Source of the DNA: Nemertoderma westbladi
Taxonomy: Eukaryota > Animalia > Xenacoelomorpha
NCBI GenBank assembly: GCA_032718475.1
Contig: JAUCBJ010005855.1
Span: 1-64,000, forward strand
DNA length: 64,000 nucleotides
Direction: 5' to 3'
Below the pieces are notes generated by a model, which was given only the letters and a program-made list of their open reading frames with translations, was not told where the DNA came from and did no database searches. Shown in pieces: positions 19,171 to 40,475 of the stretch. Each line of letters begins with the position of its first letter. Position 1 is the first letter of the stretch. A program made the translations under genes and the position numbers.

Positions 19171-22100
19171 ATGAGTGACACACCCCATTCGACGAGATAC
19201 CCACCTACCGACTATGACTCGTGCGACCCGGACAGATCGACAGTAGACGAACCAAGAAGGAGAACCCGAGATTCCACCGATGTCACACCGCTTGCGTCAC
19301 CGGTACCCCGAACGGAAATACCGGAAACCGCAACGCGTGGCGACGGCAGAATCGAAGATTTCCTTACCGTCCCGCAGACTAGATCACGGGAACCGGACAT
19401 GGTAAGTTCGACTGGAAGCCAGGAGAACGTTATTAGAAGTATAGGAGGACACATGGCCCAGATTACTCGGATCCTCGGAGAAGGTTTTCGCGTTTTACGC
19501 GAGTTAACCGCCCCGATGTCGAGATATGAGTTCTACACCTTACAGGTAAGGATAGAAAGTAGGGTACATGCCTCCGTAGATAAACTTAAAGGTTTACATG
19601 AACTTGCAGAGTTGCGCGGCGACAACTTTACTCAGGTAAAGATAGTAGATAAATTAGTAAGTGCGAGAGAAAGCATTATCCAGTTTAAGTCAGTAATAAG
19701 ATTGGCTCAACAGGAGCAGTTTGACCAACTGCTAGGTGAGTCAGTTTCGGACGCGTTGTTACAACCCGAAGAGGAAAAAGAACTCTACTGCCTGGACAGA
19801 AGGTTGGAAACGCTTACCAATTTTCTTCGTAGATGTGGCGTACCGATCGACGAACCGGAAGTCGAACCGCGAGGGACGACGGAAGTTCTCACTACGGAAG
19901 GCTCGCGAGCCTACCAACATCCACCACTGGATAGATCGTTCGTTAGCGTACGGAGCGACGTTGGCAACGTTGGCGACGTTAGTAAAACAGCGTCTGTAAT
20001 TACTCGACAACAACAGGAGGTTGCACGCCGACAACAAGTCGCCGAGGAAGAAGCGCAACACCAGATGGCACAGATCGCCATCGAAGGAGAGAAACAACAT
20101 AGAGAGGACGAGGCAAGAATTGCGCAACTCAAGGCGCAAGCCGAATTCGAAGCTTCGGAAATGCGCAGACTGGAGGAGGACTTAGCGCGAGAAGCGGCGG
20201 CAGCAGCCGACGAGTTAGCACGAAAGAAAGCAGCATCCGACGCTCGTGCCAAGTTGGAGGCGCGACAAATAAACGCTCGATTAGCTATACAGGAAGCGGA
20301 GTTAGCGGCACAACAACAAGTAGCGGATCGACGCGAAAGGGAGATGCAACTACAGTTCGAATTGAATCGTAGATCGCGCGAGACAGCGAACGCGCAAGCG
20401 GACCTCGAACTCGACGCGAGAGATAGATCTATAAGATCGCGAACTGGACACGACTTGTCTGCCCTGGATTGTATGGAAGCTCGATATCGCGGAATACAGA
20501 AGCAGATCGAGGAAGGAAGTGTGGGAGCGATAGATCGAGGAGAGGAGTTCGTCGAGGATTACTGTAAACGTTTTCCCCAAGTTATTCCTATGCTCAAACC
20601 CACGACTCCGATAAAACCGGTCTTCGTTACGAAACCTAAGGAAATAACGCCTGTGCGTTCGACGCAAGGCAACAGGTTTGTTGTGACGGAAATACCGCAA
20701 CCTAGGGCGACTTCATCACCAATTTTAGCAGGTAACATAACTAGTCCACCTACAGTAAGTCGTAGTCTACTTGTAGGAAGAGAGGAACCTGCGTTTATGA
20801 CCATTAAACAGGTGAGTAAACCATTACAAGTTAAACCTGTGACGTGCTGTGCAAATCCAGTTATTTACAGACCGACTACGAAACCCGACTATTTCACTCG
20901 ACCGTTGACACAATGTTCGACGCAACCTACGACTTCGTGGAAGGCTTGCGAGCCTACCGAACTACGGAGGAGGATGGATGTGGGTAGTACCCACAGGATC
21001 GGACAACGTATAGCGAGACCTACGACTTCGTGGAAGGCTTGCGAGCCTACCGAACAACGGAGAGCCGTAGATTCCAGACCACAACGGACGAAACCGAGAA
21101 TAATACGCCGGACACGAACCCGCCAGCCACCTTATCCGGACGACAGCGACTCATCTAGTGACTCGGAGTCGACGGAACGGGAAATATTCCGTACTGGAGC
21201 GGCGGAAGATTACAAACGAGAGGAGAGGTCGACGAATCCATACATCGACAATCCACCTCGAGAAACACCCCAACAGAAACCCACGTTGAAACCAGCGGAA
21301 ACGATCAGCGCTAAACAGTTCACCGAGATGACGGACAGAATAGCTCAACTCGAAGAACGACTCGAAGCGCAACCGTCGGATCGATCTCGAACCAGCGTGG
21401 AGTTGGAACAACCTAGACAACATCGACCACCGAGGAGAGAACAGGAGACTAGACGGACTCCGACACATCGAGAAGATGATCCCGTTAATAATTCCTACCG
21501 ACGAACAACGCGCGGAAGGGAGCGACTGGACGACGCCGCCGAACAGGGACGCGGACAGTTGGATTTGGTTAGCGAGATTGCGAAATTCGCGGCTAGACAC
21601 AGATTACCGGCACAGCAACCGCCGAAGTTCTCTGGCAACGCGAAACACTGGCGCACACTGGTAGACTACGTAGAGTCCCAGATCGCTAAGTGTGCTTTCA
21701 CCTCGACGGAGAAGTTTAATTACTTGCTCCAAGTTCTGTCTGGTGAGCCGAAACGATTAGCGGAACCCTTTATTGGAGTTCCCGATGCCTTCGAGTTAGC
21801 ATACGATTGTTTATATTCGATTTACGGAGGTAATGTCGCCATGGCTAAATCCATTATTGAAGACCTCTGCAGAGGAGGCAACATTTCGAGACCGATCGAC
21901 CTTTTACGACTCGCGGACGAAATAAAGAACGCTATAGGGACTTTACGGTCCATTGGACAACTCGAGTACGCTAACGCACCGACGGTTCTCATTCGAATAA
22001 TCGGTCGACTTCACCATCGACTACGACGAGACTGGCGACGCATCGAGTACCAGCGCGAAGAGGCCGGAGGGTTATTAAAACTCACCGATGTCTATCAACT

Positions 22101-22287
22101 GATTTCACGGGAGGCCGTGATCGAGACTCGATCGAACTATACCGATCACCATATCGCGGCGGAAGGGATAGCTATTTCTGCGCCGAATCGGACAAAACCG
22201 TTTCCGACGAACGCGAAAGCCGTTACTTACGCCACCCCTACTGAGACTTCTAAAGTTCTGACGCCTATCGGCACCACGCAGCCATGA
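19171..22287 (+). CDS. BEL/Pao gag (coiled coil plus DUF1759-like capsid region); ends at a premature TGA
   Basis: PKFSGNAKHW...EKFNYLLQVLSGEP motif. The minus-strand copy reads through this point (TKQPQQQLPADFEGC), so the stop and the nearby 2-bp deletion are lesions. Confidence 0.9.
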   Translation: MSDTPHSTRYPPTDYDSCDPDRSTVDEPRRRTRDSTDVTPLASPVPRTEIPETATRGDGRIEDFLTVPQTRSREPDMVSSTGSQENVIRSIGGHMAQITRILGEGFRVLRELTAPMSRYEFYTLQVRIESRVHASVDKLKGLHELAELRGDNFTQVKIVDKLVSARESIIQFKSVIRLAQQEQFDQLLGESVSDALLQPEEEKELYCLDRRLETLTNFLRRCGVPIDEPEVEPRGTTEVLTTEGSRAYQHPPLDRSFVSVRSDVGNVGDVSKTASVITRQQQEVARRQQVAEEEAQHQMAQIAIEGEKQHREDEARIAQLKAQAEFEASEMRRLEEDLAREAAAAADELARKKAASDARAKLEARQINARLAIQEAELAAQQQVADRREREMQLQFELNRRSRETANAQADLELDARDRSIRSRTGHDLSALDCMEARYRGIQKQIEEGSVGAIDRGEEFVEDYCKRFPQVIPMLKPTTPIKPVFVTKPKEITPVRSTQGNRFVVTEIPQPRATSSPILAGNITSPPTVSRSLLVGREEPAFMTIKQVSKPLQVKPVTCCANPVIYRPTTKPDYFTRPLTQCSTQPTTSWKACEPTELRRRMDVGSTHRIGQRIARPTTSWKACEPTEQRRAVDSRPQRTKPRIIRRTRTRQPPYPDDSDSSSDSESTEREIFRTGAAEDYKREERSTNPYIDNPPRETPQQKPTLKPAETISAKQFTEMTDRIAQLEERLEAQPSDRSRTSVELEQPRQHRPPRREQETRRTPTHREDDPVNNSYRRTTRGRERLDDAAEQGRGQLDLVSEIAKFAARHRLPAQQPPKFSGNAKHWRTLVDYVESQIAKCAFTSTEKFNYLLQVLSGEPKRLAEPFIGVPDAFELAYDCLYSIYGGNVAMAKSIIEDLCRGGNISRPIDLLRLADEIKNAIGTLRSIGQLEYANAPTVLIRIIGRLHHRLRRDWRRIEYQREEAGGLLKLTDVYQLISREAVIETRSNYTDHHIAAEGIAISAPNRTKPFPTNAKAVTYATPTETSKVLTPIGTTQP

Positions 22288-22306
22288 CAACAGTTGCCGG
22301 CACTTT

Positions 22307-25174
22307 GTGGGATGCTCATACTGCGAGCGGAACGGCAGAAACCATAGCGGACATAAACTACGTGGATGTCACGCTTTTAAAGAGTTAGGGATCGAGGAGA
22401 GGAGACTCCAAATCCGATCTCTAGATTCCTGTTGGAGATGTATGAAGCCAGGACACGTCCGGAAGGATTGCACAAGCGACGATACATGTTCTCTGTGTGG
22501 ACGTAACCATGACGCGTTGCTTCACACAACCAGTCATACTCTGACCAGACGCTTTCGACGAGAGCATCCAGATAAAGCGGCTAGATGCGACGCTCTTTAT
22601 AAGGAGCGTGCGCCGCGCGAGATCCGTACCTTTTATACCGACTGTATGGATCAGTCAGGATCATCGGACGAGGACGAGGAGGAAGACAACACTTTCTACG
22701 TGCATGCAGGTGAGGAACAGCCATCGATAACGCTCCTCACACAGAACCAATTGAAAGGGTTTAGCGTGATTCCCATAAAGATTACCGGAACCCGAGGGAG
22801 CAAGCGTATATACGCCATCTTAGACTCTGCGTCATCGCATAGCTATGTCGACGAACAAGTAGCCGACGTAGTTACGGACATGAGTCAAGGTAAGACTGCT
22901 CAGCATACAGTAAGTAGCATGCATGGTAAGAGAGCGATCCCTGTGACAAGAGTAAAACTAACTTTAGACACTCTTCTTTCCAAAGCGGAACACAGCAAGG
23001 AGGAGCGCTCATTACTTCCGGTAAGAAATTTGACCTTTGCAGCTACGAAGGACTTTAGTAACTTGCTCGGCCCTGTGCCAGAGCAATCACCGGAAGATCG
23101 TAAGTGTTTCCGACACCTTGGAATACCGGAATGTCCTGTTAATTATCATTCCATTGCGATGTTAATTGGGACAGACCAGTTTAACTTACATCAGGTATGG
23201 GAGACACGCCCATCTGTTATTACAGCGGGCAACCCCTACGCATGTAGAACTCCCATAGGTTGGTATACTAGAGCACCAATACGTTCACTAGAGGTAAGTG
23301 ACCAGGAGGACGACGTTTTGAGTACGTGTAGTTTATTGACTAACACGATAGATAATTCTCCTTCACACTCCTGTGGTCCAATTGTACGGACGGCACTACG
23401 ACAGACTTGCGTCACTAACGCAGACGCCACCGATACTGACGTAACCGATCTGGACACGACCATACGGACCTCTGACTTACAACTACTTGCAGTAGACCAG
23501 GTTGTATTGACTACTGAAGACCAAAGGGTTGTTGCCGTGGATGACTCGATGAACGAGGATTTTGGAAGGCTTGCGAGCCTACCGAAAAATCCGAAGGTCA
23601 TTGACCCCACCCACCAGGCTTCGACACCGGTCGTTGATCTTGGAAGGCTTGCGAGCCTACCGACAGATCAAAAGGTTGTCAAACCGCCGCACGACGATTC
23701 GACGCCGACTAGTGACACCGGAAGGCTTGCGAGCCTACCAGACACCTTGACACTAGCCACCGCAGCGGACGAAGACGTGGACGAGGACCATGGCGCAGTG
23801 CAAGCAGCGCTTGACCGACTGCTGACTGAACGGACCATACAATGGTTGGAACAGGACTCAGCAGAACCCGGTAGTTACGAGACCGCTATGTCAGAACAGG
23901 AAAAACGGTCATTAAATATTATGAGAGATACCATTCGCCAGACCGCGAATGGCCACTATGAGGTTGGTATGTTGTGGCGCAATGGACAACCTAAGCTCGT
24001 TAACAATTACCCGCTTGCTTTGAGGCGACTCAAATCAATAAGGCAGCGATTGTTGCGAGACGAGATGGCCCATATGCAATACAATGCACAACTTCAGACG
24101 TATCTCCAAAAGGGATACGCCATTACGATGTTAAATCCCGAGGTAACCACAGACCAGACATATTACCTGCCACATCATTTTGTTCGACACCCGGACAAAC
24201 CTGGCAAGGTGCGTGTAGTCAACGACTGCGCCGCGCTTTACCAAGGGATGTCTATGAATAGCGAACTGATGGACGGGCCGAATATGAATAATTACCTCAT
24301 GGGAGTCCTAATGCGTTTTAGACAACGCAAAGTGGCTTTCACCTGTGACGTAGAGGCCATGTTTCACCAGGTTAAGGCTTTGGAGCGGGACAGGGACAGT
24401 TTGAGGTTTCTTTGGTATCCGGACGGAAACTTACAACTTCCGCCAGAAACTTACCAAATGCAGGTAAGAGTATTCGGAGCCAGGGACAGCCCCAACTGCA
24501 CCATGTACGCATTAAAGCAGACAGCATTGGACAGACGAGACCAATTTGACCCAGAAGTAGTTCGGACCGTGGAACGAGACTTCTACGTGGATGACGGCCT
24601 CAAGAGTTGTGACACCTTGGAGCGCGCTACAACCGTAGCACACCAACTCCAGGATTGTCTCGATGAGGGCGGATTTCACCTGACGAAGTTCGCTTCCAAC
24701 GAACCCGAGCTGGTGAACTCATTTGACCCGATGGATCGCAGTGGAGGTGACTTGGACTTAGACCTAGAACCTCTGCCGACGACCAAAGTATTAGGACTTA
24801 GTTGGGACCCTAACACCGACAATTTTAGGGTACGTGTAAGGTCCAACGACCAGACTAGACCTCTCACTAAGAGGACTTGCTTATCGACCATGAGTCGATT
24901 GTATGACCCATTGTGTTTCATTAGTCCAGTGATCCTACATGCTAGGATCATACTCCGCAGCATTTGGCAAGCCGGACTGGAATGGGACGATCCCATCCCA
25001 GAAAAGTTAGCTGAGCGATGGAGGGACTGGGAAGCCCAACTGACGTTCCTACAAGATTATACCATACCGAGGGTATACTTTCCTTTGCAAACCACCTTTC
25101 CTGCCGATTTAGAGCTTCACAGCTTTAGTGACGCTAGCAAGGATGGATTGGGGGTTACTTTATACCTTAGATGA
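22307..25174 (+). CDS. Gag zinc knuckles, aspartic protease, reverse transcriptase and start of RNase H
   Basis: CWRCMKPGHVRKDC, CSLCGRNH; AILDSAS; YYLPHH, FTCDVEAMFHQV, FGARDSP, YVDD; LGLSWD, YDPL, FSDAS; in-frame TGA at 25172. Confidence 0.95.
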   Translation: MGCSYCERNGRNHSGHKLRGCHAFKELGIEERRLQIRSLDSCWRCMKPGHVRKDCTSDDTCSLCGRNHDALLHTTSHTLTRRFRREHPDKAARCDALYKERAPREIRTFYTDCMDQSGSSDEDEEEDNTFYVHAGEEQPSITLLTQNQLKGFSVIPIKITGTRGSKRIYAILDSASSHSYVDEQVADVVTDMSQGKTAQHTVSSMHGKRAIPVTRVKLTLDTLLSKAEHSKEERSLLPVRNLTFAATKDFSNLLGPVPEQSPEDRKCFRHLGIPECPVNYHSIAMLIGTDQFNLHQVWETRPSVITAGNPYACRTPIGWYTRAPIRSLEVSDQEDDVLSTCSLLTNTIDNSPSHSCGPIVRTALRQTCVTNADATDTDVTDLDTTIRTSDLQLLAVDQVVLTTEDQRVVAVDDSMNEDFGRLASLPKNPKVIDPTHQASTPVVDLGRLASLPTDQKVVKPPHDDSTPTSDTGRLASLPDTLTLATAADEDVDEDHGAVQAALDRLLTERTIQWLEQDSAEPGSYETAMSEQEKRSLNIMRDTIRQTANGHYEVGMLWRNGQPKLVNNYPLALRRLKSIRQRLLRDEMAHMQYNAQLQTYLQKGYAITMLNPEVTTDQTYYLPHHFVRHPDKPGKVRVVNDCAALYQGMSMNSELMDGPNMNNYLMGVLMRFRQRKVAFTCDVEAMFHQVKALERDRDSLRFLWYPDGNLQLPPETYQMQVRVFGARDSPNCTMYALKQTALDRRDQFDPEVVRTVERDFYVDDGLKSCDTLERATTVAHQLQDCLDEGGFHLTKFASNEPELVNSFDPMDRSGGDLDLDLEPLPTTKVLGLSWDPNTDNFRVRVRSNDQTRPLTKRTCLSTMSRLYDPLCFISPVILHARIILRSIWQAGLEWDDPIPEKLAERWRDWEAQLTFLQDYTIPRVYFPLQTTFPADLELHSFSDASKDGLGVTLYLR

Positions 25175-25177
25175 CAA

Positions 25178-28015
25178 GTGACATTGGACAGCTACGATGT
25201 ATCTCTCGTTACTTCAAGGGCTAGAACGATGCCATTGAAGTATATGACTGTACCTCGTGGGGAGCTGCAAGCCGGGACGATATCCACCGATATTGTCAGT
25301 CTAGTTCAACGCGAGCTGGAGGCTAACTTGAAGGTCACATATTGGACGGATGCGACGTTGGTACTTTGGTACATAAACAACGAAACATTTGAGTTCAAGA
25401 CTTTCGTAGCCAACAGACGGGCTGAAATATTAGACCGGTCGCTCAAACAAGATTGGCGTCACTGTCCAGGGAAGCTGAACCCAGCTGACATCGCGTCAAG
25501 GGGGATGCAACCGCTTGACTTTTGTAAACCGGACAATAAATCCTTTTGGTTTAGAGGACCCGATTTCCTACAGCGACCATCAGACGAATGGCCACCGTTA
25601 TTCGACGCGACAACCAACACCATACCAGAGGGTGCCGAGATAAAACTCGACAAGGTTGTCAAGTCTAAAGCGAAAGCCAACGCCAAGGTCAAGAGGAAAA
25701 AAGGACGGACGAAATCTGATGACCTGGACGCCAGACCTTACATTACGCCAGACGTCTCGCCAGACACTCGACCAGACGCTTGTACGAATCCTTCGCCGGA
25801 TGTTCCGCGGGAGATTTCACCAGACGTTTCGCCGGATTGTTCACCAGATTACTCGCCAGACTATTCACCAGAAGAGACACCAGATTGTTCTCCGGATTGT
25901 TCGCCAGATTGTTTGATGGAACTCTCGACAGAATGTCTACCGGACGTCTCACCAGACTTTCCACCAGACATCTCGACAGACTGTCCACCAGACTTTAGAC
26001 CAGACTTTGAACCAGACTTTCTGACAGAAGTTACGCTAGACAGACTTTGGGACCGACGACAGGACATTTTGCCGGATGTTCCGTGCTATGTCTCACCAGA
26101 CGTCTCACCAGACTGTTCACCAGACGCTTCACCAGACTGTCTACTAGACACTCCATTAGAAGACCCATTGGAGCGGACTTTTAGAGACTTACCAAATTTG
26201 ACTTCTTTGGACGACAAAGGTGTGGCCACAGGGATTACACTCCGCTCGAAGAAGGTACTTGACTTACCTACAGGTAAACGTGTGACTAAGGTTAGGAAGC
26301 TTACAGGCTCACAGGAACACACTGACACTGTAGAGTTGAAACCATTACTGCCAGTCGACACATTAGGTGCGGACGGTAAAGGAAAGACCGTAGAGATTGA
26401 CGTACTTGGGGACTCAGACAAACCTACCGGAAGGCCCGTGGGCCTACCAAGTCCAGACAAGTATCCACACTACGACTACACCTTACCCGATGACGTCACC
26501 AACACTTACGTTGACAGGATAGTGAACCTAACTAGATCATGGACTGACGTGTGCCGCAAGTTAGCATGGCTCAAACGATTGAGACAATATGCCAGAGGCA
26601 AACGCGACTTTCCTAGAAGACTTACCTTAAAGGAAATTGGCCACTGTGAAGTTGATATCATTCGACATTATCAATTGCGATATTTCGCACGAGAGTTCAC
26701 AGCGATCAAACAAGGTAAACAGATTAAGTCTTCACCGATTTTGAGTTGGAGTCCGATTATTTACCGGGGCTTACTTTGTCACAAGTCCAGACTCCAAAAC
26801 ATCGACTTTGCACTTGACTTTAGGTATCCTATCATCATACCGCAACACCATGAGTTACAGCGCGCTATGATACTGGACGCACATGTACAACTCAAACACG
26901 TAGGTAGACACCACTGTCTATCACACTTACGCTCGAGGTTTGTACTGATTAGACCTAGTAAGGCACTGAGTTCGGTAACACGGAACTGTATTATTTGTAA
27001 GAAGGTGCACGCGAGGATAGGACACCAAGAAATGAGTGAACTACCACTAGAAAGATTACAGGCGTTTAGACCCCCTTTCACTGAGACAGGGATAGACTGT
27101 TTTGGACCCATAATCGCGAAACGCGGAAGGGTACAGGTAAAACGTTGGGGATTGATCTTCACTTGCATGGCCAGCAGAGCTGTCCATATAGAACGAGTGA
27201 CAGACTTGACCACCAATGCCTTTATCCTAGCCTTACGGCGATTTATCGCTAGACGTGGATTGGTCAAATCCATATACTGCGACCAAGGGACAAACTTTGT
27301 GGGTGCACGGAACGAAATAACCAGAGCTTTGAGAAAATTGGACCAAAACCAGATTTCCGAGGAACTACGTCCTCACCGTATTGTTTGGTTTTTCAATACT
27401 CCAGACAGTCCGTGGAGAGGCGGCGTTTGGGAAAGGCTGATTGGCTCAATAAAGACAGCTATGGCTAAAGTCGTACCGACGCAACACATCTTGACAGACG
27501 ACCAACTGACGACGTTACTAATAGAAATCGAAGCAATCTTAAATACTAGACCGATCGCTTTGATCCCAGACAATAACGACGTACAGTTTGCCTTGACACC
27601 AGCGCACCTGCTTATGCAGCCGCCGACGACATTGTTGCCCATTTCGGTACCCGTTGATAGTGACGGATACGGCAACAAGGCTTGGAAAATCACTCAATTG
27701 CTTGCAAATAAATTCTGGGAAATATGGCAGAAATATTATTTGCCCTCTATTTCGACCAGAACCTCTTGGTATCTAAATACCCGATGTTTAAGACGTGGTG
27801 ACCATGTTTTATTGGCTGAAGCTAATCTGAAAAGACGGTTTTGGTTGACTGGAGTCATTTTGACCACGCACCCTACATCTGGTGTAGTGAGGACAGTTAC
27901 TGTAAAGACTATCGACGGACGTACCGTAGATAGGCCTGTACAACGTCTCGTACTCCTTGAGGAGACTAGAAACGAGACGGGAGACTACAAATCTCCACCC
28001 AATATTAGTAAATAG
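25178..28015 (+). CDS. Pao RNase H, SPD-repeat linker and integrase
   Basis: TVPRGELQA, YWTDA, NPADIASRG; H..GRHH...CIIC; GIDCFGP, CDQGTNFVG, WRGGVWERL; same frame as the upstream ORF. Confidence 0.95.
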   Translation: MTLDSYDVSLVTSRARTMPLKYMTVPRGELQAGTISTDIVSLVQRELEANLKVTYWTDATLVLWYINNETFEFKTFVANRRAEILDRSLKQDWRHCPGKLNPADIASRGMQPLDFCKPDNKSFWFRGPDFLQRPSDEWPPLFDATTNTIPEGAEIKLDKVVKSKAKANAKVKRKKGRTKSDDLDARPYITPDVSPDTRPDACTNPSPDVPREISPDVSPDCSPDYSPDYSPEETPDCSPDCSPDCLMELSTECLPDVSPDFPPDISTDCPPDFRPDFEPDFLTEVTLDRLWDRRQDILPDVPCYVSPDVSPDCSPDASPDCLLDTPLEDPLERTFRDLPNLTSLDDKGVATGITLRSKKVLDLPTGKRVTKVRKLTGSQEHTDTVELKPLLPVDTLGADGKGKTVEIDVLGDSDKPTGRPVGLPSPDKYPHYDYTLPDDVTNTYVDRIVNLTRSWTDVCRKLAWLKRLRQYARGKRDFPRRLTLKEIGHCEVDIIRHYQLRYFAREFTAIKQGKQIKSSPILSWSPIIYRGLLCHKSRLQNIDFALDFRYPIIIPQHHELQRAMILDAHVQLKHVGRHHCLSHLRSRFVLIRPSKALSSVTRNCIICKKVHARIGHQEMSELPLERLQAFRPPFTETGIDCFGPIIAKRGRVQVKRWGLIFTCMASRAVHIERVTDLTTNAFILALRRFIARRGLVKSIYCDQGTNFVGARNEITRALRKLDQNQISEELRPHRIVWFFNTPDSPWRGGVWERLIGSIKTAMAKVVPTQHILTDDQLTTLLIEIEAILNTRPIALIPDNNDVQFALTPAHLLMQPPTTLLPISVPVDSDGYGNKAWKITQLLANKFWEIWQKYYLPSISTRTSWYLNTRCLRRGDHVLLAEANLKRRFWLTGVILTTHPTSGVVRTVTVKTIDGRTVDRPVQRLVLLEETRNETGDYKSPPNISK

Positions 28016-28752
28016 ATGTGGGACCTTAGTTGGCCGCCACATAGACCTACGGTATTTTAGTTATTTGTATTTGTATTACTGTACGTGCATTTGTAATCCT
28101 CTTCACTGTAGATAGAGACAGCGGTGGAATTCCATTGTCTTTATACGTGAACATGGAGGGTAGTACCCTTATGTATCACATAGGAGCGGGATTGTGTGTA
28201 CAGTAGGAATGGAATTCCACTTGGAACCCACAAGTGAGACAATTTTCAAAAATTATTAGACAAATCCATTTGTTTGGATTTAAATTTAAGAAAAGCGATT
28301 CTCCAGTGAAAGCAAATTCTAGAATACAGCTAGATAAAAATTAAAATTGGGGAGGACAAGAGCGGATGGAAGGCTTGCGAGCCTACCGATAAAATTTTTT
28401 TTGGAAAAAGAAAATCGGCCTTGTTCTACGTAGTCGTGTCTACCATTATTTAGACCAATTAATTCTCAACTGCACTATTTTTCTTGGGAAACGTAGTTTG
28501 GGAAATTAAAAGGTGAGTATTTTAGACTCGCGGCTAGTTTACCCGGAATTCGTTTTTTATCGGCACATTTTTTGGATTAGGAGCCAGTGCGAAATCACGC
28601 GAACCCGAAATCATTAGGCAAAATGGGTTGGGGTTTAGAGCAGAGTTGAGCCAAAAGCCGACAAACTATAAGTCACCTCACATCTAACCTCTATTTTGTG
28701 CTTCATCTAGTAGAAACGTAACGATATGTAACCACATATATATTCGTATACG

Positions 28753-31700
28753 ATGGCGGAGAAGATGTATAAAGAGTTACGTCAAGGGTTTACGCAAGAA
28801 CAAGAGCACCAGCCGCCATTCAATCGTTATGGAGCTAAAAACTTTAGTGTGTTTGGAGTGGAGAGTATGGCTAGGAGTACGGCCAAGCTCGCTAAATCCA
28901 AGGCGGACCCGAATGTTCTGCGACAGCGGTTGGACGCATACAACAAAAGAACAGAGGAATTACGCGCGGAATTCAATGCGTTATATCCTTACGATGCGTT
29001 ATGCGACGCTAGCGACATTTGCGAGGATCCAGACACCGAAATACGCCGATTGTATCATACGCTGCAATATTTGACGGTAAACGAACCCTTACCTGCAGCT
29101 AGAGACGAATTTGAAGGAATGCATCTTTATAGACGCGCTCGAGGAGCGGATCCAGAGACCAAGGACGCGTTCTCCATATACAAACTGTTTTATAAATGTG
29201 GAGCGTGTATGCGCGAGCAAGACAACGCGATTCCTATGCGGTTGAACTCGGAGAACCCCGAGCCGATATTAGCGCGATGTTCACACCACCAAAGTCTACG
29301 TTACCAAGAAGGCGGATACCCTTTGACAAATCCGTATCATTCGTTTAAAATGAGTGGACCGAACGCGGGTGAGATCGTTATTTACGAACCCAAATTAGTC
29401 GAACCAGACGTCTACAGCATGGTAGTGGACAAGTCTAATAAGTCGACACAAGAGAAACGGGAAGCTTTGAGCCTCTACAGGGCGTACAAGGCGTACAAGA
29501 AAGGCGAGATCGAGGAGTTCGGCGGAAGGCTCGCGAGCCTACCATTCTATTGGATATCCCACGATCAAACCGAACCCAAGGAGATGACACCCGAGCTCTT
29601 CGATAGTATCACCTTTGCTCAGCGTTTGTCGCAGAGACTACAGATACCTCATGTCGAGATGACGCGAGAACCTCAGCCCCATTCTACTGGAGCAATAGTA
29701 CCGGTTGCGAGACCAACTAGTTTTCCTATTAGTATACCGACCCGGAAGGAGACAATTTACGAGATCCCTATAGTTGAACACCCGGAGATCATCTCGAACC
29801 TGGATTTCCTCCCATCGGTTACCTTCGGTGATGTGTTAGAATCAACCGAGTTGCGTAAAAATAATAGTTCAAAAAATTGTACGCAACGTGCCTCCACATA
29901 TCACGGACTTTAAGGAAGTGGATCGCGCGGGGACGGATATCGCACCTTGTATCTTGCGAGGATATCTGACGAAAACGATTTGATTATGGATCGGAGTTGG
30001 AACGTTTGAGACCGACACCGATATCGCGACCAATTGGACCGGTAAACCTATTAGTTTCGATGATGAAAAGTCGATCGGGAGAATTTGGAACCCTACCGAC
30101 GATTTACTCGACGATTGGGACGTGACTAGCCGATCTCTGAAAGAGAATGGTTATATGTTTTACGATAATGAAGGAGGAAGCCATCAGCAAAGCCTCACTT
30201 CAAAGACTATACAGATTAGAGCACCAGATGGCGTGTTACATGTCTTCAGCCGACAGAGGAGTGATAGGAAGATGCCTATGCCGGAAGGAACGACGCAAAG
30301 ACACGCGATGATAAAACGGATAGTTAAATCCATGGACCTGGCTTGTAGCATAGAAGCTAGGATGTTGCCAAAGGCCGTGCGAGACGTTGTGTTGGATAAG
30401 AGCATCGTCAAGATCGGATCTGGTGTACGGGATGACCTCATTAGTGACTTTGCAGGGATGCCCACGGAAGAGGACCGATTGCCTACGCCATACGTGGATA
30501 CTAGACCATTGTTGCTTTGGGCTATTGAGCAAGGATATTTTAGGGAGTATAACACGCTAAAAACTGGGACGGGTTATATCTCATATCTAATGTTCAGTTA
30601 GGATTACAAGGAGAGTAAGAGGAACAAATACACGGACGTATACGGAGAGGGAGATACCCCCGGCGTAAACGAGTTCGAGTCACAGTTGAAGTGGCGAGGT
30701 TGCGTGTATTGGGCGATTACTTCACCCCCGCGGATAATCTTGCAATACTATTTAGCGATAGAATCTTCGGTTAACGTTTGTTTCATCGCGGACGTAGTAT
30801 CCAGAACCCTAAAGCGACACCCGTTATGTCTTGGCGAAGGACATACCTTTTACGATGGAGGAAGGACGCATACTGATGTATTCCGACGATTTCTCCAACC
30901 CTTTTATAACACCGATGCGCACTGCGAAGTTTTCACGCGAGCAGGACTTAGCGTTTTCAGGGACGTCTATCTCACTCACGCGGGAAGTCTAGTTGACAGA
31001 CCGTCGATGTTAACGTTAGTACCCTATGACGGGGAATGCCACGTGGAATTCGAACGCCCGGAAGGATCCTGGAAGGCTCGCGAGCCTACCGCCCATCATG
31101 ACGATGTGGATCCGACCGAGTTGACGCTAATAGATGAACCGTTACGGCAACTCATAGAAGTAGAGGAGAACCTTCCGAGGAAGACGCGAACTGAGATACG
31201 CGAGTTGGAGAAAAGCGATGCCATGGTTTGTGTACAACCTACGGAGACGAACATACCGACTGACCCAGATGATGAGAATTATCACGTGGACGGTAGCGCT
31301 CGCCCCATCGGAGATCTCATCTATGAGCGAGTTTGGTATCCTGCCAACACTATTTGTGGCAGATGTGGAGCAACTGGCCATCACGCAAAGAAGTGCGGAG
31401 CGAAGCACATATCTCTACCGGATTTAGTATGCAACTGGTGCGGGGATCAACGTTCGCACACTTTCTACACTTGCTGGCGTTTCGTGGCGCAGTGTACTTA
31501 TTGTAATATTAAGGGCCATAGGGCATCCGAATGTCAACTTAGAGACGTCCCCTATGAGCACATGACAGTTAAAATCGTTCGACAATTATTCGACCATTGG
31601 GAGGATCTAGCAGACGAGCATGTATCGACGCAGCGACGCCGCTTCCCTATGAGAGCACATTTGGGATTTTGGGCCGTAAACCCGCTCATAATGTCAAAGG

Positions 31701-32509
31701 AAGGATATGTATCGGCTATGCCTCAGTACGATGAATTGTTGGAGGTATTGGATATATTGCCATTGGATAGTGGATTCAAAGTTGTGCGGGACTATTTCTT
31801 ACAAGTGCACCCTGACAACAAGAATACTTGGAACTTTCAAACTGTGGTGAACAAGATTACCGCCGGAGAATTCGATAAACTGCGAGTTGAACAGCGGAAT
31901 CGAGGAGCCTGGCATTCGATAGCTTGGGCATACCGGAGCGCATTTTATCACAAACGCGTAACCTCGTGTATTCTAGACGAGACCGACGTTTTGCGTGAGA
32001 CTGGCTTCAAGGCCACGCCATTAGCAGAGAAGACGCGTCACCCACAGGATGATCAGCAATTTCGTATACTCAAAGCCCAGAAGGCCAGACAAGAGATTAA
32101 AAAGATAGTAAATGTCGCCGAGAGGACGACATCGAAGTCGCAAATCTGGATGACTCGGGGCACGGTTTCCCTTGCTAGAGAACCACGCGGAGGGACAGGA
32201 TACGCTTTGAATGAACCCATTAGGATTCAAACGACGTCAGAGAGCGAGGTGTCAACGGACGGAATGGTCCTACCTTTTTGACTTCCTCCTAGCGTTGTAG
32301 AAACTCGATCCGATGTTAAGCCGACAGTTGGAATCGGACGAGGATTTAGAGGATTGAGCGCACGACGGATGTGCGAAACTCCCGTCGTCCCCTTTCCTAG
32401 CGTTTTGGAACCACCGACGACTCGACGCCGAAGTCCGAGCCCAGTTCGACCTCGACCACCCCCCAATCGCACTAGAGGACGTGGACGAGCCCGCTCAGCG
32501 AAGGAATAG
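28753..32509 (+). pseudogene. ORF3 (~1250 aa reconstructed): N-terminal CxxC..CxxH domain, DEDDy 3'-5' exonuclease-like domain, 3 CCHC knuckles, basic tail
   Basis: One +1 frameshift at ~29858 and in-frame stops at 29981, 30599 and 32279. The lesions at ~29858 and 32279 are open in the minus-strand copy; family B has Trp at the 30599 position. Motifs FYDNEG, LPKAVRDVVLDKSIVKIGSGVRDDL..DF, YVDT, QYYLAIE; CGRC..GH....C, CNWC....HT...C, CTYC...GH....C. Confidence 0.8.
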
Positions 32510-33145
32510 GAAGCGAGTGGAAGGAAGGCTTGCGAGCCTACCGATTTGGATATTATATTTGGATATTTATTTTGGATATTTATTTGGATATTATATTTGG
32601 ATATTTATATTGGACATTATGTTTGAATGTTGGGTTTGGAGGAGCGAGATATGGAAAGGAAGGCTTGCGAGCCTACCGTTAGCAATTGGTGCTCAGGAGA
32701 AGATATCCAGACCAGCAGGACGAACTATTTAGATCGTCAGGAGGACATTATTGGAAGTTATTAGCGTATTGTGTTTATTTTATATTTGAACTGATTTAAT
32801 TTGGTGGAAGTTTATTATGTATATTTACAATATATAAAGATTTATCGAAAGAGTTACAATTATTTGTTCGATTTGTTTTGATTTATTTGTTCTGATTTGT
32901 TTAATTTGCTTACCTTGATAACCGAAAGCCTTTTTTGTATTTTAGGCACTAAAGTTGATTAGTAAATTTGTATTTGTATGTACGATCGATTGTATTTACG
33001 CCGTATCTGCAATATTAAGTATGCAATAATTAGATAGTGATTATATTTTATATTTTAGGCCCTACCAGTAGATTTAGAAGTAGTTTGTAAATATTTTATA
33101 TTTCGATTGGTGAAAACAGTCTTACTTACTGTTTTCATGGAGCGG

Positions 33146-34235
33146 TGATGAATTATTTCACTATAAGGTAGCATTTGTAGTTTAACTTTAACGTAAAAAC
33201 TTTCGAAAATCCGACGCATTTTGATTAAGTTACAGTAATGTAATATGCCTATTCATATTTGTACACATAAAACCCTTAGGTACTCTCGTGGCGTAGTGGT
33301 CAGATGGTTAAGGCGTTGGTTACATTACATAGGTTACGAGTTCGAATCCCGGTTGGGAAATTTGTATTTTGGGGCCATTTATTTTCGTTTGGTGCTAATT
33401 GGTAGGCCAATGAGAAGCGTACAACGTAGCGAATGATGAGCCAGGCCAATCATAGGGCATAAATTATCTTATTGCTCAAATGTGAGGCAGTGGAAAATTC
33501 TGTTAGGATTCCATGTCCCAGATTAGTGTAAGGGCCGGATTGCGTTGAACGATGAGCTGGGCCAATCATAGGGCACGAAGCACTTTATTGCTCAAATGTG
33601 AAGCTGTGGAAAATTCTGTTTAGTTTCCATGTGCGATATTTAGTATAAAAGGCCGGTTTGCCTTCGGTTATCACTCTTACTTACTTCTTAGAACCTAAAT
33701 CCTTACTCTTGTAAAAATTAGTTTATTCGGTTTCTTGTTGAAACTTCGTTTGATAATTCCTTTGTAAAACTGTAAATATACTGCAAATTCCTGAACATGT
33801 TTTCTTTTGGTCCAACTTTGGGACAGCCAAACATCAGGAAGATGGCAGCCTAGACCGTTAGGCCGTAAGCAACGCAGGGAAAAGATGTCCACAACACGCT
33901 AGCGCCCACATTGGATTGACCGCGCACCCCCTTTGCCCCTTCGAAATACTCCACTTGCCATGCAGCGCCCGCTTTGTGAGAAAGGTAAGACTTTGTTCGA
34001 CGCCCTTGCCCGCCGTAAGACCTATAGATCAGGGTAAGCGTGACGCCGTCCTGGACGCCGCAAATTTAGGATCAAATAATTATATTCAGACAGAAACACC
34101 CCCCCCCCCCCCCCCCCCCCCCCCCCTTTGTCATGTCCTACGAACCCCTGGGTTAACCTGTACTTCCTACAGGTGCGAACTATTGCCATTCATCAGTACG
34201 CGAGTACATATTAGGTACGGACAGCATATGTTCCA
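33146..34235 (+). repeat. 3' LTR of family A (1090 bp)
   Basis: Direct repeat of 15853-16935. Confidence 0.93.
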
Positions 34236-35616: not shown

Positions 35617-38600
35617 TTATTTATGACTTTTCTTCTTTTTAGAAGAGCGTTTGCGTCGCTTTGTCGACGGTGAATGATTATTGGTTGACGAAGGTGGGGA
35701 ACCTCGTACTTGCAGCCCTTCAGCGGCGGAAGGATGAATCTCCAATGAATCCGGATGGGGCGCAACAGCACATAATGCGGGTCCTCCGGTAGAAGTTCCA
35801 GGTTGAGGTTCAGTTGTCGTAGTGGTCACTGAAACGGATTGTCGCAACAACTTTACGCCTTTTCTAAGTACCTTGGCCAGTGAGGACCTGGAGGAAGGCA
35901 CCAGGGTGGATTGTACTGCCTTTTGAAGAATTGCCGCAGTAACTGGTCTTTTGAGAGTTTGCGATGACGTCGCAATGCCTCCTCTGTCGGAAATAAACCT
36001 GGGCGGCTTGACAGTCTCTTCAGCAAGACGCGCCGTATGACGAAGGTAAGCAACTCGATCCGAAGTTTGTAGCAACTCGGGATTAGCGGCGACGAAGTCG
36101 TACCCGTAGTTCGAGTCTTTCCGCATGAATTCAACAAGGTTGTAGGTCGTAACGTCACCGGGGTTCATACGACGGAGAAAGGGCCGCACATACTGAGTGT
36201 TAGTAAGCTCCGAAACGGTTAATAATAACTGGTGGAAGGTGGGATCTTTGCACTTCAATAGCGAAATAATAGGGATTGAATGCAAAGACTCCGCAATACG
36301 AGCGAGCAGACTCGTAGCGTAGGCGCGTGACTTGATTTAAGTCAGTGTAATGTTCCCACAATTTAATATACTTTAAGAGGGATGTATCGTCGTCCCGTTG
36401 TGTCAAGTCAAAGGTGCAAGAGCCCGGGTAATGCCCTTTAAGACGACATTTATCGCATTGTTCAGCGAATTGCGGGCAGTTGAAGAAGGTATGATCGTCG
36501 AACAATCTGCAATATGGACAATGGAGGGGAAGGTCCGAACATTGTAGATAGCTTTGACAAATCTCGCCGGTAGCTGGTGCTTTATGCGCACGGGAACCAC
36601 ATTGAACGCAGCGCTTCCTACCTTGAGACACACCCGAACGAAGCGAATCTCGTCAAAGGTTGTGGTCCAAGGTGCCACGGCATAATAAATTCACCGTCAT
36701 CATCCGACTCAGAAGTGGGATGGATGGATTTAGATTCCAGGACATTATCTGTTGCGGAATCCTTTAGATAAGAAGCCAGCTGTTTGTCCGAAGTTTGGAC
36801 AATCGAGACATAATACCCAGACTTAAGGATGGGGCGTTCTAGAATAGTCGAATGTAGGTTTTTAACACATACATCCTTAAATATAGCGAAACCCTTTAGA
36901 TTTAAATCCTCGAAAGCAGAGAGACGTATATTTACCTGTCCCTTCAGAAGGTGATCACAGAACTGGCTATCAATACCAAAGAAAGGGAATAAAAATCTTT
37001 GAAAACATTCGAAACATTGGAACTTCCCTTCACGGTTGACTTTGGCAAGCTGGGTGCAGAGAATTAAGGGGTGTGACCTCAAAGTTCTACTACAAGTATT
37101 GGCCAACCAACCTGACACAACAGAGTTCTCGTAAATCATATAAATAGCCAAAGAAGGCCAAAGGGGAACACTAATATTTGAATAAACTGCACCCGGAGCG
37201 GTCAAGGGACCATTAAAATAATAATGGGAATAATTATCACCGTACAGATTTAAATAGCGGTTATACCGACCTTCCTTGAAATCCCAACCGAGTTCATGGA
37301 ATGAGATATGTCCGATGCCGGTACGTTCAGCTCTGCGCATTCTGCTTCCCACGCGTTCGTAAATAACGCGGAAAAAGCCACGTTCCTGAGCCCACGGGAG
37401 GATCATTTGCGTGTCCGCAAAGGGGTAAGGAATATCTAACAATGAGTCGAAATCCTTGTATAGGTCGGGATATATTGCTGAACCGAGTTTGCAAATCGTC
37501 TCGTTGAACAACAGGTCAAGGACAGGTTGTGGTAGCATTGAGGGTTTGATAGCGAGCGCAGGGTGCCGCTTGGTTGCAACGACGTAACAGTAGGACTTCT
37601 CGAACTGTCCATGTCGAGGTAACATTTCCTGGAAGGACGGAGGGGTAAAAGATGCGTTAGAGCTATGGGAGGTTTGCGTGAATACATGAGTGGCTCCGGT
37701 GAGACAACGGAAATGTATTAGCGTGTGGTGCCGAGTTCATCATTCAAAACGGAACCTTTGTTGTCGTATAGCATCACACCATACTGCTGGATAATCTCGA
37801 GCATGTTATTAAATTCGAGATACGCAATGGTTTTGTCCACTTCAACTGGTGTCCATAAGCTGTCGAGGGATCCGATGGAGCCTCGGGCGATAACTACCGA
37901 TTTGTGACTTTGGACGTTTTCTACGACGGATTTTTCTTTCATCACCGTAGAGAGTTTGTCTTCCCGAAATCGCACGTCGACGTTCCAGTGAATTAATCGA
38001 TCAATAATGAAATTAGCAAGATTATGGGGAGGTGCGGGTTTGTCTTCTATAGTTTGTGGGGCGAGCCACGAAGTTGGCGGAGCCTTAGCGAATTGACACT
38101 ATTAGGGGGTGGGTCAATTTATGCAAATAGTTGTCGTCGTCGTCGTTGTCGTCGTCGTCGTCATCGTCGTCGTCGTCGTTACGATTTTGACATGCTAATA
38201 ACTTTGTCGGATTTAAAGCTGCCAAGTTGAAAATTTGTAGGTATCAATATGAGCAAAAGTTGAGATTTTTGAGAGACTTTCAGACACCATCAGTGCAATG
38301 GTCTCCCGCTAGAGGGCCACATGTCTAAACATTAAATGCCCTCCCATTTCTTTGCTTTTAATCCGTTTAAGCTGAAACTTGGCAGATATGTATTAGACCA
38401 TTAGCTGTGACTTTCAAAGGAGGCGAATCCATCTGCAGTTCTCCAGTCTGCCGCTAGAGGGCCAAAGGTCTGAAAGTGAAAACAACTAACGACGACAACT
38501 ATTTGCATAAATTGACCCACCCCCTAACAGTGTCAATTCGCTAAGGCTTCGCCAACTTCGTGCTGCGCGAAGGCCCCACTTCGTGTATATTAAAGGGTTT

Positions 38601-40475
38601 ACGGAAGGCGTTCAGTTTAACCATGTGATCGAGATGTTTCTGCAGGGGTTCGATTTCTGTAACATCGAGCAGATTAACTAGAGGTAGAAAATCCATACTG
38701 CAGGCGGGATCCTCAGGTTTCATCACGTACTGTTGAACGAGGAGAATGAAGTCCGGATGGTCCTGAATCCCATAGAACGGGGGATGGAGAGGACGTCTTT
38801 CCAGATTCTTATCTCGGATCAGTGACTTGATTTGGTCAGTTCGGCCAAGGGGAGCGATAATCCACTCGTCGTCAGTTTTGTCGAGAAAGGGCTCAACAAT
38901 GTGGGTTTCCAGCATTGGAGCATCGGCGACCAGGTTAGGGTTGGAGATGTCGGTGTCGAAAGGTATCGTTCGGGTTTGACTGTAAGCGACACCGAAACGC
39001 TTTACAGACCCAGACGGATGAGCTTGCGCATTACCTTGGAACCCTTCCATAAGAGTTTGGACCGCGGGTTGGACCAAGGAAACTAGCTCGCGCTCGTCGT
39101 TTAAACGTTCACGCTCCGTCTGTTCCTCTTCTTCACGAAGACGTTGGCTTTCTTTTAAGGCATCTGCAAGGAAAATAGCCTTTCCTCTTTCGATTTCCTC
39201 TTGGATGAGGCGGACTTTGGACTCAAACTCTGGGAGTCGCATCCGTCGGATGACATCAAGTTTACCGGATAACTTGATTGGGTCATCAACACCGATAGAG
39301 TTTCGTAGGGAGTCCAGAAACTCAGTAACTAGATAGTTACGATTGACGTTGGAGGTCCCGGCGAAGGTGAGGGGGGAGGTCCACATGGATTGCTCACGCT
39401 GTAGCAGACTGCCACGGCCGATACTGATCATAGAGGGTTGGAGTGGGGTCGGCTCTTCCTCTTGGTAGCGGGGAGCTATCTGTTCCTCCATGACAAGGTC
39501 TCGGAAATACATGTACATGGTTTCGGAGAAGCGAGGATCGGTCGGGGATAGTGTCATGGGTTTTACCATGGGTAACATCGGGCCGGGAGAAAACTCCGGA
39601 ACGCGGATCATAGGTTTACGTACTCTCTGTAGACCACGTAACCGTTTCTCATCAACATTAAATCGATTTTCCTCAAACCCACCGTACGAGTACTTGACGT
39701 AACTATGGCGGGGACATCGCCAATGGGGATGGTTCGCAGGCATAGTGGAGACTTGTTGGTTGGGATGCGGGCATTGACCACACAAGTACCAGAGCCAAAA
39801 GCCAGTTTTACTCGGAGATGGGGACTTCACACCAGATTTGCAGTATTCTTCCATGTCGTAGAAGGAGTCGGGGAGGACAGGGAGCGGGCAGCCCTCAGTA
39901 AGGTACATCATGGTGTGATAGAGTCGTTTGATCTCCTTAACTGGATCAGGATGAACGCCTCTGGGGTAGAGAGTTTGTAAATCCTGTTGGCTAGCGACCT
40001 TTAGGTATGTCTCACGAAGGAATATAACATAGTCCTCAAACCGGAAGAGATGAAAAGAGTTCTCTGTATCGTCATCCGCAACATCAACACGAATCTGGTA
40101 GTCGCGTTGAGTTTGAATCTCGTTTCTACATTGCCGCTCAACTTGAAGTTTGAACATCTTCATGTCCCATTCAACGTGTTGGTCATCAATGTCCCGTAAG
40201 TCCATAGGGTGACCAGTAGTGAGGAAGCTGTTATAACTCCCATCGCGTTTGGTGTATTTGAGAATAAACTCACGATATTGTTGTTCGATGTCGCGCTGTT
40301 CGGGGTTCATCAGCGGTTCGATGTAGCTTCCCGAAGGATCCATACGCGGTTCCATACTTTGGGCGAGCTGAGTGGATTCGCCGGTATAGTCAGCTATCAT
40401 CGTATCCATCATCTCCGAATGTTGTCCCCGAGAACGTCGCTTTACGGAGGGGGGTGTCTTTGAAGATCGAGACAT
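35617..40475 (-). pseudogene. Family B ORF3: homolog of family A ORF3 (exonuclease-like plus 3 CCHC), split by a MITE and frameshifts
   Basis: DPVKEIKRLYHTMMYLT..PLP (A: DPDTEIRRLYHTLQYLT..PLP); LYDNKG; MLPQPVLDLLFNETICKLGSAIYPDLYKDF; FADT; YMIYE; CVQC, CPYC..HTFFNC, CDKC...GH; basic tail KRRKRSSKKKK. Confidence 0.82.
38064..38564. mobile_element. ~500-bp MITE with ~75-bp terminal inverted repeats inserted in family B ORF3
   Basis: cacgaagttggcgragccttagcgaattgacactrttagggggtgggtcaatttatgcaaatagttgtcgtcgt is inverted at both ends; internal (GTC)n; possible 3-bp GCG TSD (exact ends uncertain). Confidence 0.88.

What the first reader, a model, noticed from the sequence alone, without database searches (positions are those of the whole stretch)
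28753..32509. BEL/Pao retrotransposon with a DEDDy 3'-5' exonuclease plus triple zinc-knuckle ORF in the env position
Seen: after integrase there is a ~1250-codon ORF with no obvious signal peptide or TM segment. It has, in order, FYDNEG (30161), TIQIRAPDG..HVF, LPKAVRDVVLDKSIVKIGSGVRDDL..DF, YVDT, GTGYISYLMF.(W)DYK and W...P....QYYLAIE (~30745), then three CCHC knuckles (31355-31534) and an Arg/Ser/Pro tail. Established: this order matches ExoI (DxE), ExoII (KxG...D) and ExoIII (Yxxx[D]) of DnaQ-like DEDDy nucleases (WRN-exo, RNase D, Mut-7/Nibbler, EXD1/2). Extra ORFs in BEL/Pao elements are usually env-like. Inference: the element encodes an RNA-binding exonuclease. It could trim or destroy piRNA/siRNA/dsRNA (anti-silencing, compare arenavirus NP), or proofread/mature a very large genome (compare nidovirus ExoN). 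Possible precedents to check before claiming novelty: DEDDy ORFs in bdelloid Terminons, and my unverified recollection of exonuclease-like domains in nematode Cer elements.
Basis: partly seen in the sequence, partly recalled or inferred. Interest (0 to 1): 0.92.

Follow-up and report, generated by a model that had tools for sequence, protein, structure and literature searches.

The report
BEL/Pao retrotransposon carrying exonuclease–zinc-knuckle gene
An unusually large jumping gene of the BEL/Pao type carries, where related elements keep a viral envelope gene, a long conserved gene that likely encodes an RNA-trimming enzyme with three zinc fingers; similar cargo is known from rotifer elements of another type, and here it is predicted to blunt the host's small-RNA defence.

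Summary
Observation confirmed; exonuclease call likely, not proven. An 18.4-kb BEL/Pao element (15853-34235) carries after integrase a 1252-codon ORF3, broken four times in this copy only. ORF3 is a real gene: dN/dS between two in-window copies is 0.04-0.18 (gag/pol 0.14-0.24), and 27 of 36 listed sites that vary among copies in the exonuclease part are third positions. A second BEL/Pao family next door (RT 43% identical, sister clade) has the same ORF3 modules at 28-35% identity. Pfam, PDB-sequence and homologue searches missed the domain. A protein-language-model search (PF01612), a profile of WRN/EXD2-like proteins (above all shuffles) and an alignment-guided fold (EXD2, Nibbler, RNase D) point to DEDDy. 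Only ExoII is strong by itself; ExoIII ends in Glu; the neighbour copy lacks one ExoI acid. DEDDy ORF3s are published for bdelloid Ty3/gypsy elements (2017), and this scan noted Rrp6-like ones in other genomes. I found no BEL/Pao case in print but could not read the nematode Cer papers. Best guess: an RNA exonuclease acting in trans against small-RNA silencing (0.4). New variant of a known kind.

The parts
15853..16935 (+). 5' LTR (1083 bp, TG...CA)
   Evidence: 99.0% identical to 33146-34235; no matching target-site duplication at the outer ends
19171..22287 (+). gag, long, with DUF1759
   Evidence: Pfam PF03564 E 5e-9
22262..28015 (+). pol (knuckles, protease, RT, RNase H, integrase); one in-frame stop at 25172
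   Evidence: Peptidase_A17 E 1e-26, Integrase_H2C2, DUF5641 E 5e-18; best relatives are BEL/Pao polyproteins at 38-46% identity
28684..28710 (+). Putative 3' splice site for an env-like subgenomic mRNA (branch-point-like CTAAC, pyrimidine tract, AG), 43 nt before an ATG in strong context
   Evidence: Read from the sequence; splicing is inferred, no RNA data
28753..32509 (+). ORF3, 1252 codons, broken at about 29857, 29981, 30599 and 32279 in this copy
29026..29319 (+). Conserved N-terminal domain with CxxC...C..H (possible zinc site); no known family
   Evidence: 35% identical to family B, E 2e-11; no Pfam hit at cut-off; best Atlas score 0.75
30110..30814 (+). DEDDy-like (WRN/EXD2-type) 3'-5' exonuclease domain with two insertions; candidate catalytic residues D 30164, E 30170, D 30434, Y 30749, E 30761
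31355..31534 (+). Three CCHC-type zinc knuckles
   Evidence: Pfam zf-CCHC E 0.0009-0.002, below cut-off; dN/dS 0.04; kept in family B
31535..32509 (+). Conserved post-knuckle region and Arg/Ser/Pro-rich tail
   Evidence: dN/dS 0.12 and 0.18; first part homologous in family B
33146..34235 (+). 3' LTR
19896..32677 (+). Eleven exact copies of a 20-nt near-palindrome GGAAGGCTYGCGAGCCTACC (19896, 20939, 21032, 23564, 23642, 23720, 28368, 29524, 31071, 32523, 32658), all in one orientation, in three reading frames and in non-coding DNA
   Evidence: 0 expected by chance; the same 5-bp stem with a YGCG loop in the best fold of 9 of 9 copies tested, z from -3.1 to +0.1
53724..64000 (-). Second copy of the same family (about 90% identical), internally deleted; lacks most of pol and the exonuclease part of ORF3
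35617..40472 (-). ORF3 of a second, deeply diverged BEL/Pao family (family B), in pieces: N-terminal domain, exonuclease-like domain, three knuckles, basic tail; interrupted by a 496-bp inverted-repeat element at 38067-38562
   Evidence: tblastn E 2e-11, 5e-28 and 3e-9; alignments
41578..48504 (-). Family B gag-pol, decayed, with a LINE-type RT fragment inserted at 43967-45376 (+)
   Evidence: RT 43% identical to family A; sister to it with support 0.98 in a tree with 120 relatives

Best explanation
A BEL/Pao retrotransposon lineage carries a conserved third gene in the env position, which likely encodes a metal-dependent 3'-5' exonuclease held on RNA by three zinc knuckles and is predicted to act in the host cell, in trans, by trimming or degrading the small RNAs (or their precursors) that would silence the element. 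Shown: the gene, its position, its purifying selection, its presence across a high-copy family and its homologue in a sister family. Inferred: the DEDDy fold (about 0.88), catalytic activity (about 0.65 given the fold), expression from a spliced mRNA, RNA as substrate and the anti-silencing target.
For: Real gene: dN/dS 0.04-0.18 in 5 of 5 ORF3 parts compared, plus two sub-segments, against 0.14-0.24 for gag/pol; 27 of 36 listed intermediate-share sites in the exonuclease part at codon position 3, p 4e-7 (40 of 83 rows were shown); 11 of 11 such sites over all ORF3 (40 of 548 rows shown). Old: the same modules in the same order in family B, RT sister clade. Four of five candidate catalytic residues are identical in family B, against 31% identity overall. 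RNA: knuckles plus basic tail; Trypanosoma RNase D joins a DEDD domain to a CCHC finger and degrades guide RNAs (PMC7797062, abstract and headings). In trans: separate ORF 740 nt after pol; a derivative skipping 29316-32378 stands in 2 of 4 runs at high contig depth.
Against: No hit in Pfam, NCBIfam, PHROGs, PDB sequences or three homologue searches. As ungapped blocks, ExoI, strands 2-3, the helix before the SK motif and ExoIII do not rank in the top four sites in either family; only ExoII (31 vs 2.7; 24 vs 4.4) and, second-ranked, the DT block do. hhalign probability is only 61-63%, and global mode fails. The single-sequence fold failed (pLDDT 34); the guided model is middling (pLDDT 58, pTM 0.58) and was fed DEDDy sequences, so its fold matches are partly circular. 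ExoIII ends in Glu in both families and the family B copy has Lys at the second ExoI acid. Purifying rather than positive selection is not the usual sign of an arms race (general knowledge). Nothing here bears directly on the substrate.
Confidence: 0.4

Rival explanations
1. ORF3 is an active exonuclease that serves the element's own replication: bound to the genomic RNA by its knuckles (perhaps at the repeated hairpins) and co-packaged, it trims RNA primers, mismatched or untemplated cDNA 3' ends, helping strand transfer over an 18-kb genome.
For: Closest profile is the WRN/EXD2 group (37 vs 19 for RNase D and 25 for PolA), whose members act on DNA and hybrids as well as RNA (recalled). Steady purifying selection. 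The element is nearly twice the 4.2-10 kb given for the family (PMC8742986). Eleven conserved hairpin-like sites. PMC5408684 suggests 3'-end processing of element RNA.
Against: ORF3 is not part of Gag-Pol, so it has no built-in route into the particle. 0 of 120 listed nearest polyproteins carry PF01612. No repeated motif was found in the family B copy. Much of the extra length is ORF3 itself, a long gag and a 2.2-kb leader.
Confidence: 0.27
2. The domain has the DEDDy fold but little or no catalysis and works as an RNA-binding adaptor, like Egalitarian or EXD1, for example carrying element RNA into germ cells in place of an envelope, or acting as a decoy for piRNA-pathway partners.
For: Glu for Asp in ExoIII in both families; Lys at the second ExoI acid in the family B copy; two insertions; Egalitarian and EXD1 are among the fold matches (Z 8.6 and 8.5); PMC5408684 notes inactive DEDD derivatives in piRNA biogenesis.
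Against: Family A keeps D, E, D, Y and an acid; none of the 40 listed variable sites changes these residues, and the one in the ExoI Glu codon is at a third position. The family B copy is heavily decayed, so its Lys may be damage.
Confidence: 0.2
3. The segment is not a DEDDy nuclease: ORF3 is a real accessory gene of another fold, with one short look-alike of the ExoII helix-strand-helix.
For: All library searches are negative; only one block scores independently; the fold search is partly circular.
Against: The Atlas search used no alignment and returned PF01612 in 25 of 30 hits; both families match ExoII independently; motif order and spacing, and the residues shared between families, follow the DEDDy pattern.
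Confidence: 0.1
4. ORF3 is a neutrally decaying captured host gene or a nested insertion.
For: Both in-window families are broken in ORF3.
Against: dN/dS and third-position bias; breaks private to this copy; gene shared by sister families.
Confidence: 0.02

Closest known systems
DEDDy ORF3 of bdelloid rotifer LTR retrotransposons Juno and Vesta, and of Athena/Terminons (PMC5408684; main text read)
   Same: DEDDy-type exonuclease as ORF3 downstream of pol, no TM or env features, altered acid set, function untested.
   Different: Those are Juno/Vesta elements (Ty3/gypsy-type, recalled), here BEL/Pao. Their motif is given as DEED, here D-E-D-E. Here the domain sits in a 1252-residue protein with an N-terminal Cys/His domain, three knuckles and a basic tail, and purifying selection is shown; that paper tested only env and GDSL ORFs and found neutral variation. 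Whether the two are related by descent was not tested, as the rotifer sequences were not on hand.
Belpaoviridae (Bel/Pao) elements with an env-like third gene (PMC8742986 whole text; PMC3118150 and PMC13524379 passages)
   Same: LTR-gag-pol-ORF3-LTR, with Pao-type pol domains.
   Different: ORF3 is not env-like; the element is 18.4 kb against the 4.2-10 kb described.
WRN exonuclease / EXD2 / mut-7 (Nibbler) group of DEDDy nucleases (PF01612)
   Same: ExoII block close to the group's pattern; order of motifs; fold matches.
   Different: 12-22% identity to the bacterial members used; two insertions; Glu in ExoIII; below Pfam detection.
Trypanosoma brucei RNase D (PMC7797062; abstract and section headings; PDB 7c42, Z 8.8)
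   Same: DEDD exonuclease followed by a CCHC zinc finger that aids RNA binding; degrades small RNAs.
   Different: A cellular enzyme with one finger domain; no sign of common descent beyond the fold.
Viral DEDD exonucleases: nidovirus ExoN, arenavirus NP (recalled, no call)
   Same: A mobile RNA genome carrying its own 3'-5' exonuclease for fidelity or for removing immune-triggering RNA.
   Different: Those are DEDDh-type enzymes of RNA viruses; functional analogy only.

Membership tests
BEL/Pao (Belpaoviridae) | Flanking LTRs, 0.2-1.2 kb | tested here: met
   1083 and 1090 bp, 99% identical, TG...CA
BEL/Pao (Belpaoviridae) | gag then pol in the order PR-RT-RH-IN with Pao-specific domains | tested here: met
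   DUF1759, Peptidase_A17, Integrase_H2C2, DUF5641
BEL/Pao (Belpaoviridae) | RT closest to BEL/Pao RTs | tested here: met
   1253 hits at E <= 1e-40; 119 of the 120 listed carry PF05380 plus DUF1759, integrase or DUF5641 domains, the other PF05380 and RVT_1; no outgroup from other LTR classes was included in the tree
BEL/Pao (Belpaoviridae) | tRNA-Arg/Gly primer-binding site, polypurine tract, target-site duplication | tested here: inconclusive
   Looked at by eye only: no clear PBS, a short purine-rich run before the 3' LTR, no TSD
DEDDy 3'-5' exonuclease (PF01612, WRN/EXD2 group) | Score above the Pfam cut-off | tested here: inconclusive
   No hit in filtered hmmscan; own profiles score above all shuffles but weakly
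DEDDy 3'-5' exonuclease (PF01612, WRN/EXD2 group) | ExoI D-x-E at the end of strand 1 | tested here: met
   Family A: D 30164, E 30170 on invariant columns, after strand 15-17 of the model. Family B copy keeps D only
DEDDy 3'-5' exonuclease (PF01612, WRN/EXD2 group) | ExoII Asp | tested here: met
   D 30434, kept in both families; strongest block
DEDDy 3'-5' exonuclease (PF01612, WRN/EXD2 group) | ExoIII Y-x-x-x-D | tested here: inconclusive
   Y-x-x-x-E in both families, in a predicted helix; not found by alignment or block score alone
DEDDy 3'-5' exonuclease (PF01612, WRN/EXD2 group) | DnaQ/RNase H-like fold with the acids clustered | tested here: inconclusive
DEDDy 3'-5' exonuclease (PF01612, WRN/EXD2 group) | Two-metal 3'-5' exonuclease activity | not testable with these tools
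   Needs an assay
env-like fusion glycoprotein | Signal peptide, TM anchor, homology to a viral fusogen | tested here: not met
   Highest 19-residue hydropathy 1.48; no fusogen family in Pfam

The most novel reading that the evidence does not exclude
An old BEL/Pao lineage replaced env with a dedicated multidomain ribonuclease (zinc-site domain, WRN/EXD2-type exonuclease, triple knuckle) that works as a transposon-encoded suppressor of piRNA/siRNA silencing, and marks its own RNA with eleven repeated hairpins so that the enzyme or Gag can tell self from target. It would be an enzymatic counter-defence of an animal retrotransposon against small RNAs.
Probability: 0.2. Interest if true: 0.85.

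Novelty: new variant of a known kind. Interest (0 to 1): 0.58.

Why it matters
How animal retrotransposons evade piRNA silencing is largely open, and nuclease ORF3s have had no evidence of function since they were described in rotifers. This case adds a second LTR superfamily, a different source (WRN/EXD2-like), an RNA-binding architecture and clear purifying selection in a high-copy, recently active family with a deep sister lineage. Repeated, independent capture of DEDD nucleases by LTR elements suggests a common selective pressure, and a high-copy family makes small-RNA and expression tests feasible.

Tried and rejected
Library searches for the exonuclease part found nothing: Pfam, NCBIfam, PHROGs (44, only weak unrelated hits), PDB sequences (one gave only chance beta-lactamase hits), homologue database (14: 0 of 646 candidates; 39: 0 of 73), plasmids (45, chance). 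The one hit among 1.84 billion representatives (P0002, E 2e-4) is a repeat protein matching 40 residues of the insertion: rejected. The one metagenome locus (L001) is the antisense frame of a bacterial serine-acetyltransferase-like gene (name recalled): rejected. Prokaryote genomes: 0 of 48 candidates. The single-sequence fold failed. No genome of the host is held. No RNA holder was listed; run X6, guessed RNA from another organism label, covers 15 of 30 bins in short pieces and is not used as evidence. Rfam: two chance matches; ARAGORN: none. The N-terminal domain has no Atlas match above 0.75. No complex was predicted. Literature: searches found no BEL/Pao exonuclease ORF; the word 'exonuclease' has 0 occurrences in the main texts of PMC3118150, PMC2774666 and PMC13524379. 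Malik et al. 2000 and two other older papers on Cer or LTR elements were not held, so the recalled exonuclease in nematode Cer elements is neither confirmed nor excluded. Repbase, Dfam and GyDB could not be searched, and no supplements were read; those of PMC3118150 (all element sequences) could hold unannotated cases.
Full report
The element. Two LTRs of 1083 and 1090 bp, 99.0% identical, bound an 18.4-kb element at 15853-34235; the outer flanks show no target-site duplication. Gag carries DUF1759; pol carries Peptidase_A17, the H2C2 integrase domain and DUF5641. The RT region finds 1253 proteins at E <= 1e-40; the 120 listed are BEL/Pao polyproteins at 38-46% identity, and those with names come from marine invertebrates. 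None of the 120 has PF01612. The host is not known, and no genome is held. The ICTV profile gives 4.2-10 kb and at most an env-like third gene (PMC8742986, whole text).

The observation. 28753-32509 spans 1252 codons, broken by a frame change near 29857 and stops at 29981, 30599 and 32279. Contigs of three DNA runs from three studies cover all 30 bins of 28000-33200 (5878, 169 and 2864 records laid), and at each break 82-100% of the depth differs from this copy. The breaks are therefore private damage in a high-copy family. The second in-window copy reads in one frame across the frame change and the last stop. No hydrophobic window reaches TM level. A branch-point-like motif, pyrimidine tract and AG lie just before the ATG, as expected for an env-like spliced message; this is inference.

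ORF3 is a selected gene. Between the two in-window copies dN/dS is 0.16 (N-terminal part), 0.09 (25 codons past the frame change), 0.10 (knuckles and C-terminal part; 0.04 for the knuckles alone, 0.12 after them) and 0.18 (tail), against 0.14-0.24 for gag and pol; all Fisher p <= 0.003. That copy lacks the exonuclease part, so I used variation among copies in public runs: of 40 rows shown out of 83, 36 had a share under 95% and 27 of these are third positions (p 4e-7). Over all ORF3, 11 of 11 intermediate-share rows are third positions, while the 18 near-fixed rows split 8/5/5 (40 of 548 rows shown, 29 in ORF3). The rows shown are the best supported, not a random sample.

A sister family has the same gene. 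The decayed element on the minus strand at about 35.6-48.5 kb is a second BEL/Pao family: RT 43% and integrase 27% identical, and sister to family A with support 0.98 at a distance of 1.7 substitutions per site in a midpoint-rooted tree with 120 relatives. After its integrase it carries the same modules in the same order: N-terminal Cys/His domain (35%, E 2e-11), exonuclease-like region (28%, E 5e-28), three knuckles (28%, E 3e-9) and a basic tail. ORF3 is thus an old, inherited part of this lineage.

Is the domain a DEDDy exonuclease? Standard searches say nothing. Three other routes agree. (1) The ESM Atlas feature search of the stop-free part gave PF01612-bearing clusters in 25 of 30 hits, top score 0.91, a level shuffled proteins reach 4-10 times in 100. 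(2) I collected stand-alone PF01612 proteins from Bacteroidota genomes; their profile's best structures are WRN exonuclease, mut-7 and EXD2. The HMM scores the ExoII stretch at 8.4 bits, above 2000 of 2000 shuffles (maximum 4.4) and above every other frame of the window and 121 other proteins. hhalign gives 35.9 against a maximum of 24.1 in 150 shuffles and 37.2 against 21.6 in 120 for the two families together; RNase D and PolA profiles score 19.5 and 24.9. (3) AlphaFold2 on an alignment with 26 DEDDy proteins gave pLDDT 58 and pTM 0.58. It put strands on TIQIR and VLHVF and a helix over QYYLAIE although the alignment had these elements elsewhere, and left the insertions disordered. The model matches EXD2 first in Foldseek (E 2e-4), 3'-5' exonucleases first among viral models, and diDNase, Nibbler and RNase D at Z 9.7-10.6 in a full structural scan. 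This third route is partly circular. Against: only the ExoII block stands out on its own in both families, hhalign probabilities are about 60%, and the unguided fold failed. The two families share ExoI Asp, ExoII Asp and ExoIII Tyr and Glu; the second ExoI acid is Glu in family A and Lys in the one family B copy, which may be decay or a lineage trait. I put the fold at about 0.88 and activity at about 0.65 given the fold.

How it likely works. The knuckles (most constrained part) and basic tail point to RNA. Trypanosoma RNase D shows that a DEDD domain with a C-terminal CCHC finger can degrade a class of small RNAs (PMC7797062, abstract and headings). ORF3 is separate from Gag-Pol and an ORF3-less derivative appears to have multiplied, which fits action in trans. 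I therefore favour trimming or destruction of silencing RNAs or their precursors (0.40), ahead of a role in the element's own replication (0.27), a catalytically weak RNA adaptor (0.20), another fold (0.10) and neutral cargo (0.02). No result here addresses the substrate. The eleven exact 20-nt hairpin-like repeats could be a self-recognition signal for Gag or ORF3, but none was found in the family B copy.

Comparison with what is known. PMC5408684 (main text read) describes RNase D-like DEDDy ORF3s in bdelloid Juno and Vesta LTR elements and in Terminons; two reviews repeat it (PMC6431247, PMC5718144; passages). So the kind is known. Eight literature searches found no BEL/Pao case, but the older Cer papers were not held and TE databases could not be searched. 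Earlier notes of this scan report Rrp6-like and DEDDh ORFs in LTR elements, mostly gypsy, of other genomes (unchecked AI notes, used only as context); none matched this sequence or these words.

Verdict. A real, old and constrained accessory gene, likely a WRN/EXD2-type exonuclease fused to three zinc knuckles, in an unusually large BEL/Pao element. New variant of a known kind; interest 0.58.

Noticed in passing
window 19896-32677 (+), 11 sites; 55085-63031 (-), 8 sites: A 20-nt near-palindrome recurs exactly 11 times along the element in one orientation, in three reading frames and in non-coding DNA. The one variable base keeps pairing possible in RNA, so it may be a packaging, dimerisation or protein-binding signal. 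No equivalent was found in the family B copy.
   Followed up: partly
window 33283-33358 and the matching part of each LTR: The LTR contains a tRNA-like segment with A-box and B-box-like motifs (recalled consensus), as in a SINE head; kept in the second copy's LTR. ARAGORN and Rfam do not call it.
   Followed up: partly
window 51432-54707 (-): The second copy's 3' LTR runs directly into another leader and gag start: a tandem array sharing one LTR.
   Followed up: partly
window 38067-38562; related motif at 48811-48865: A 496-bp element with 74-nt terminal inverted repeats is inserted in family B ORF3; it carries two copies of a motif that resembles the CTCF site (recalled).
   Followed up: no
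window 43967-45376 (+): LINE-type RT fragment (RVT_1 E 5e-29, DUF6451) inserted in family B pol.
   Followed up: no
window 25723-26173: A 12-bp tandem repeat encodes a long (S/C)PD-rich insert between RNase H and integrase in family A pol.
   Followed up: no
window 29315-32379: A joint skipping 3063 bases, most of ORF3, stands in contigs of 2 of 4 runs at high depth: an ORF3-less derivative seems to have multiplied.
   Followed up: no
window 480-2072 and 4994-6989 (-): Long ORFs with Ala/Glu/Arg/Lys repeats and no Pfam hit at cut-off (first one scanned), probably pieces of further mobile elements.
   Followed up: no
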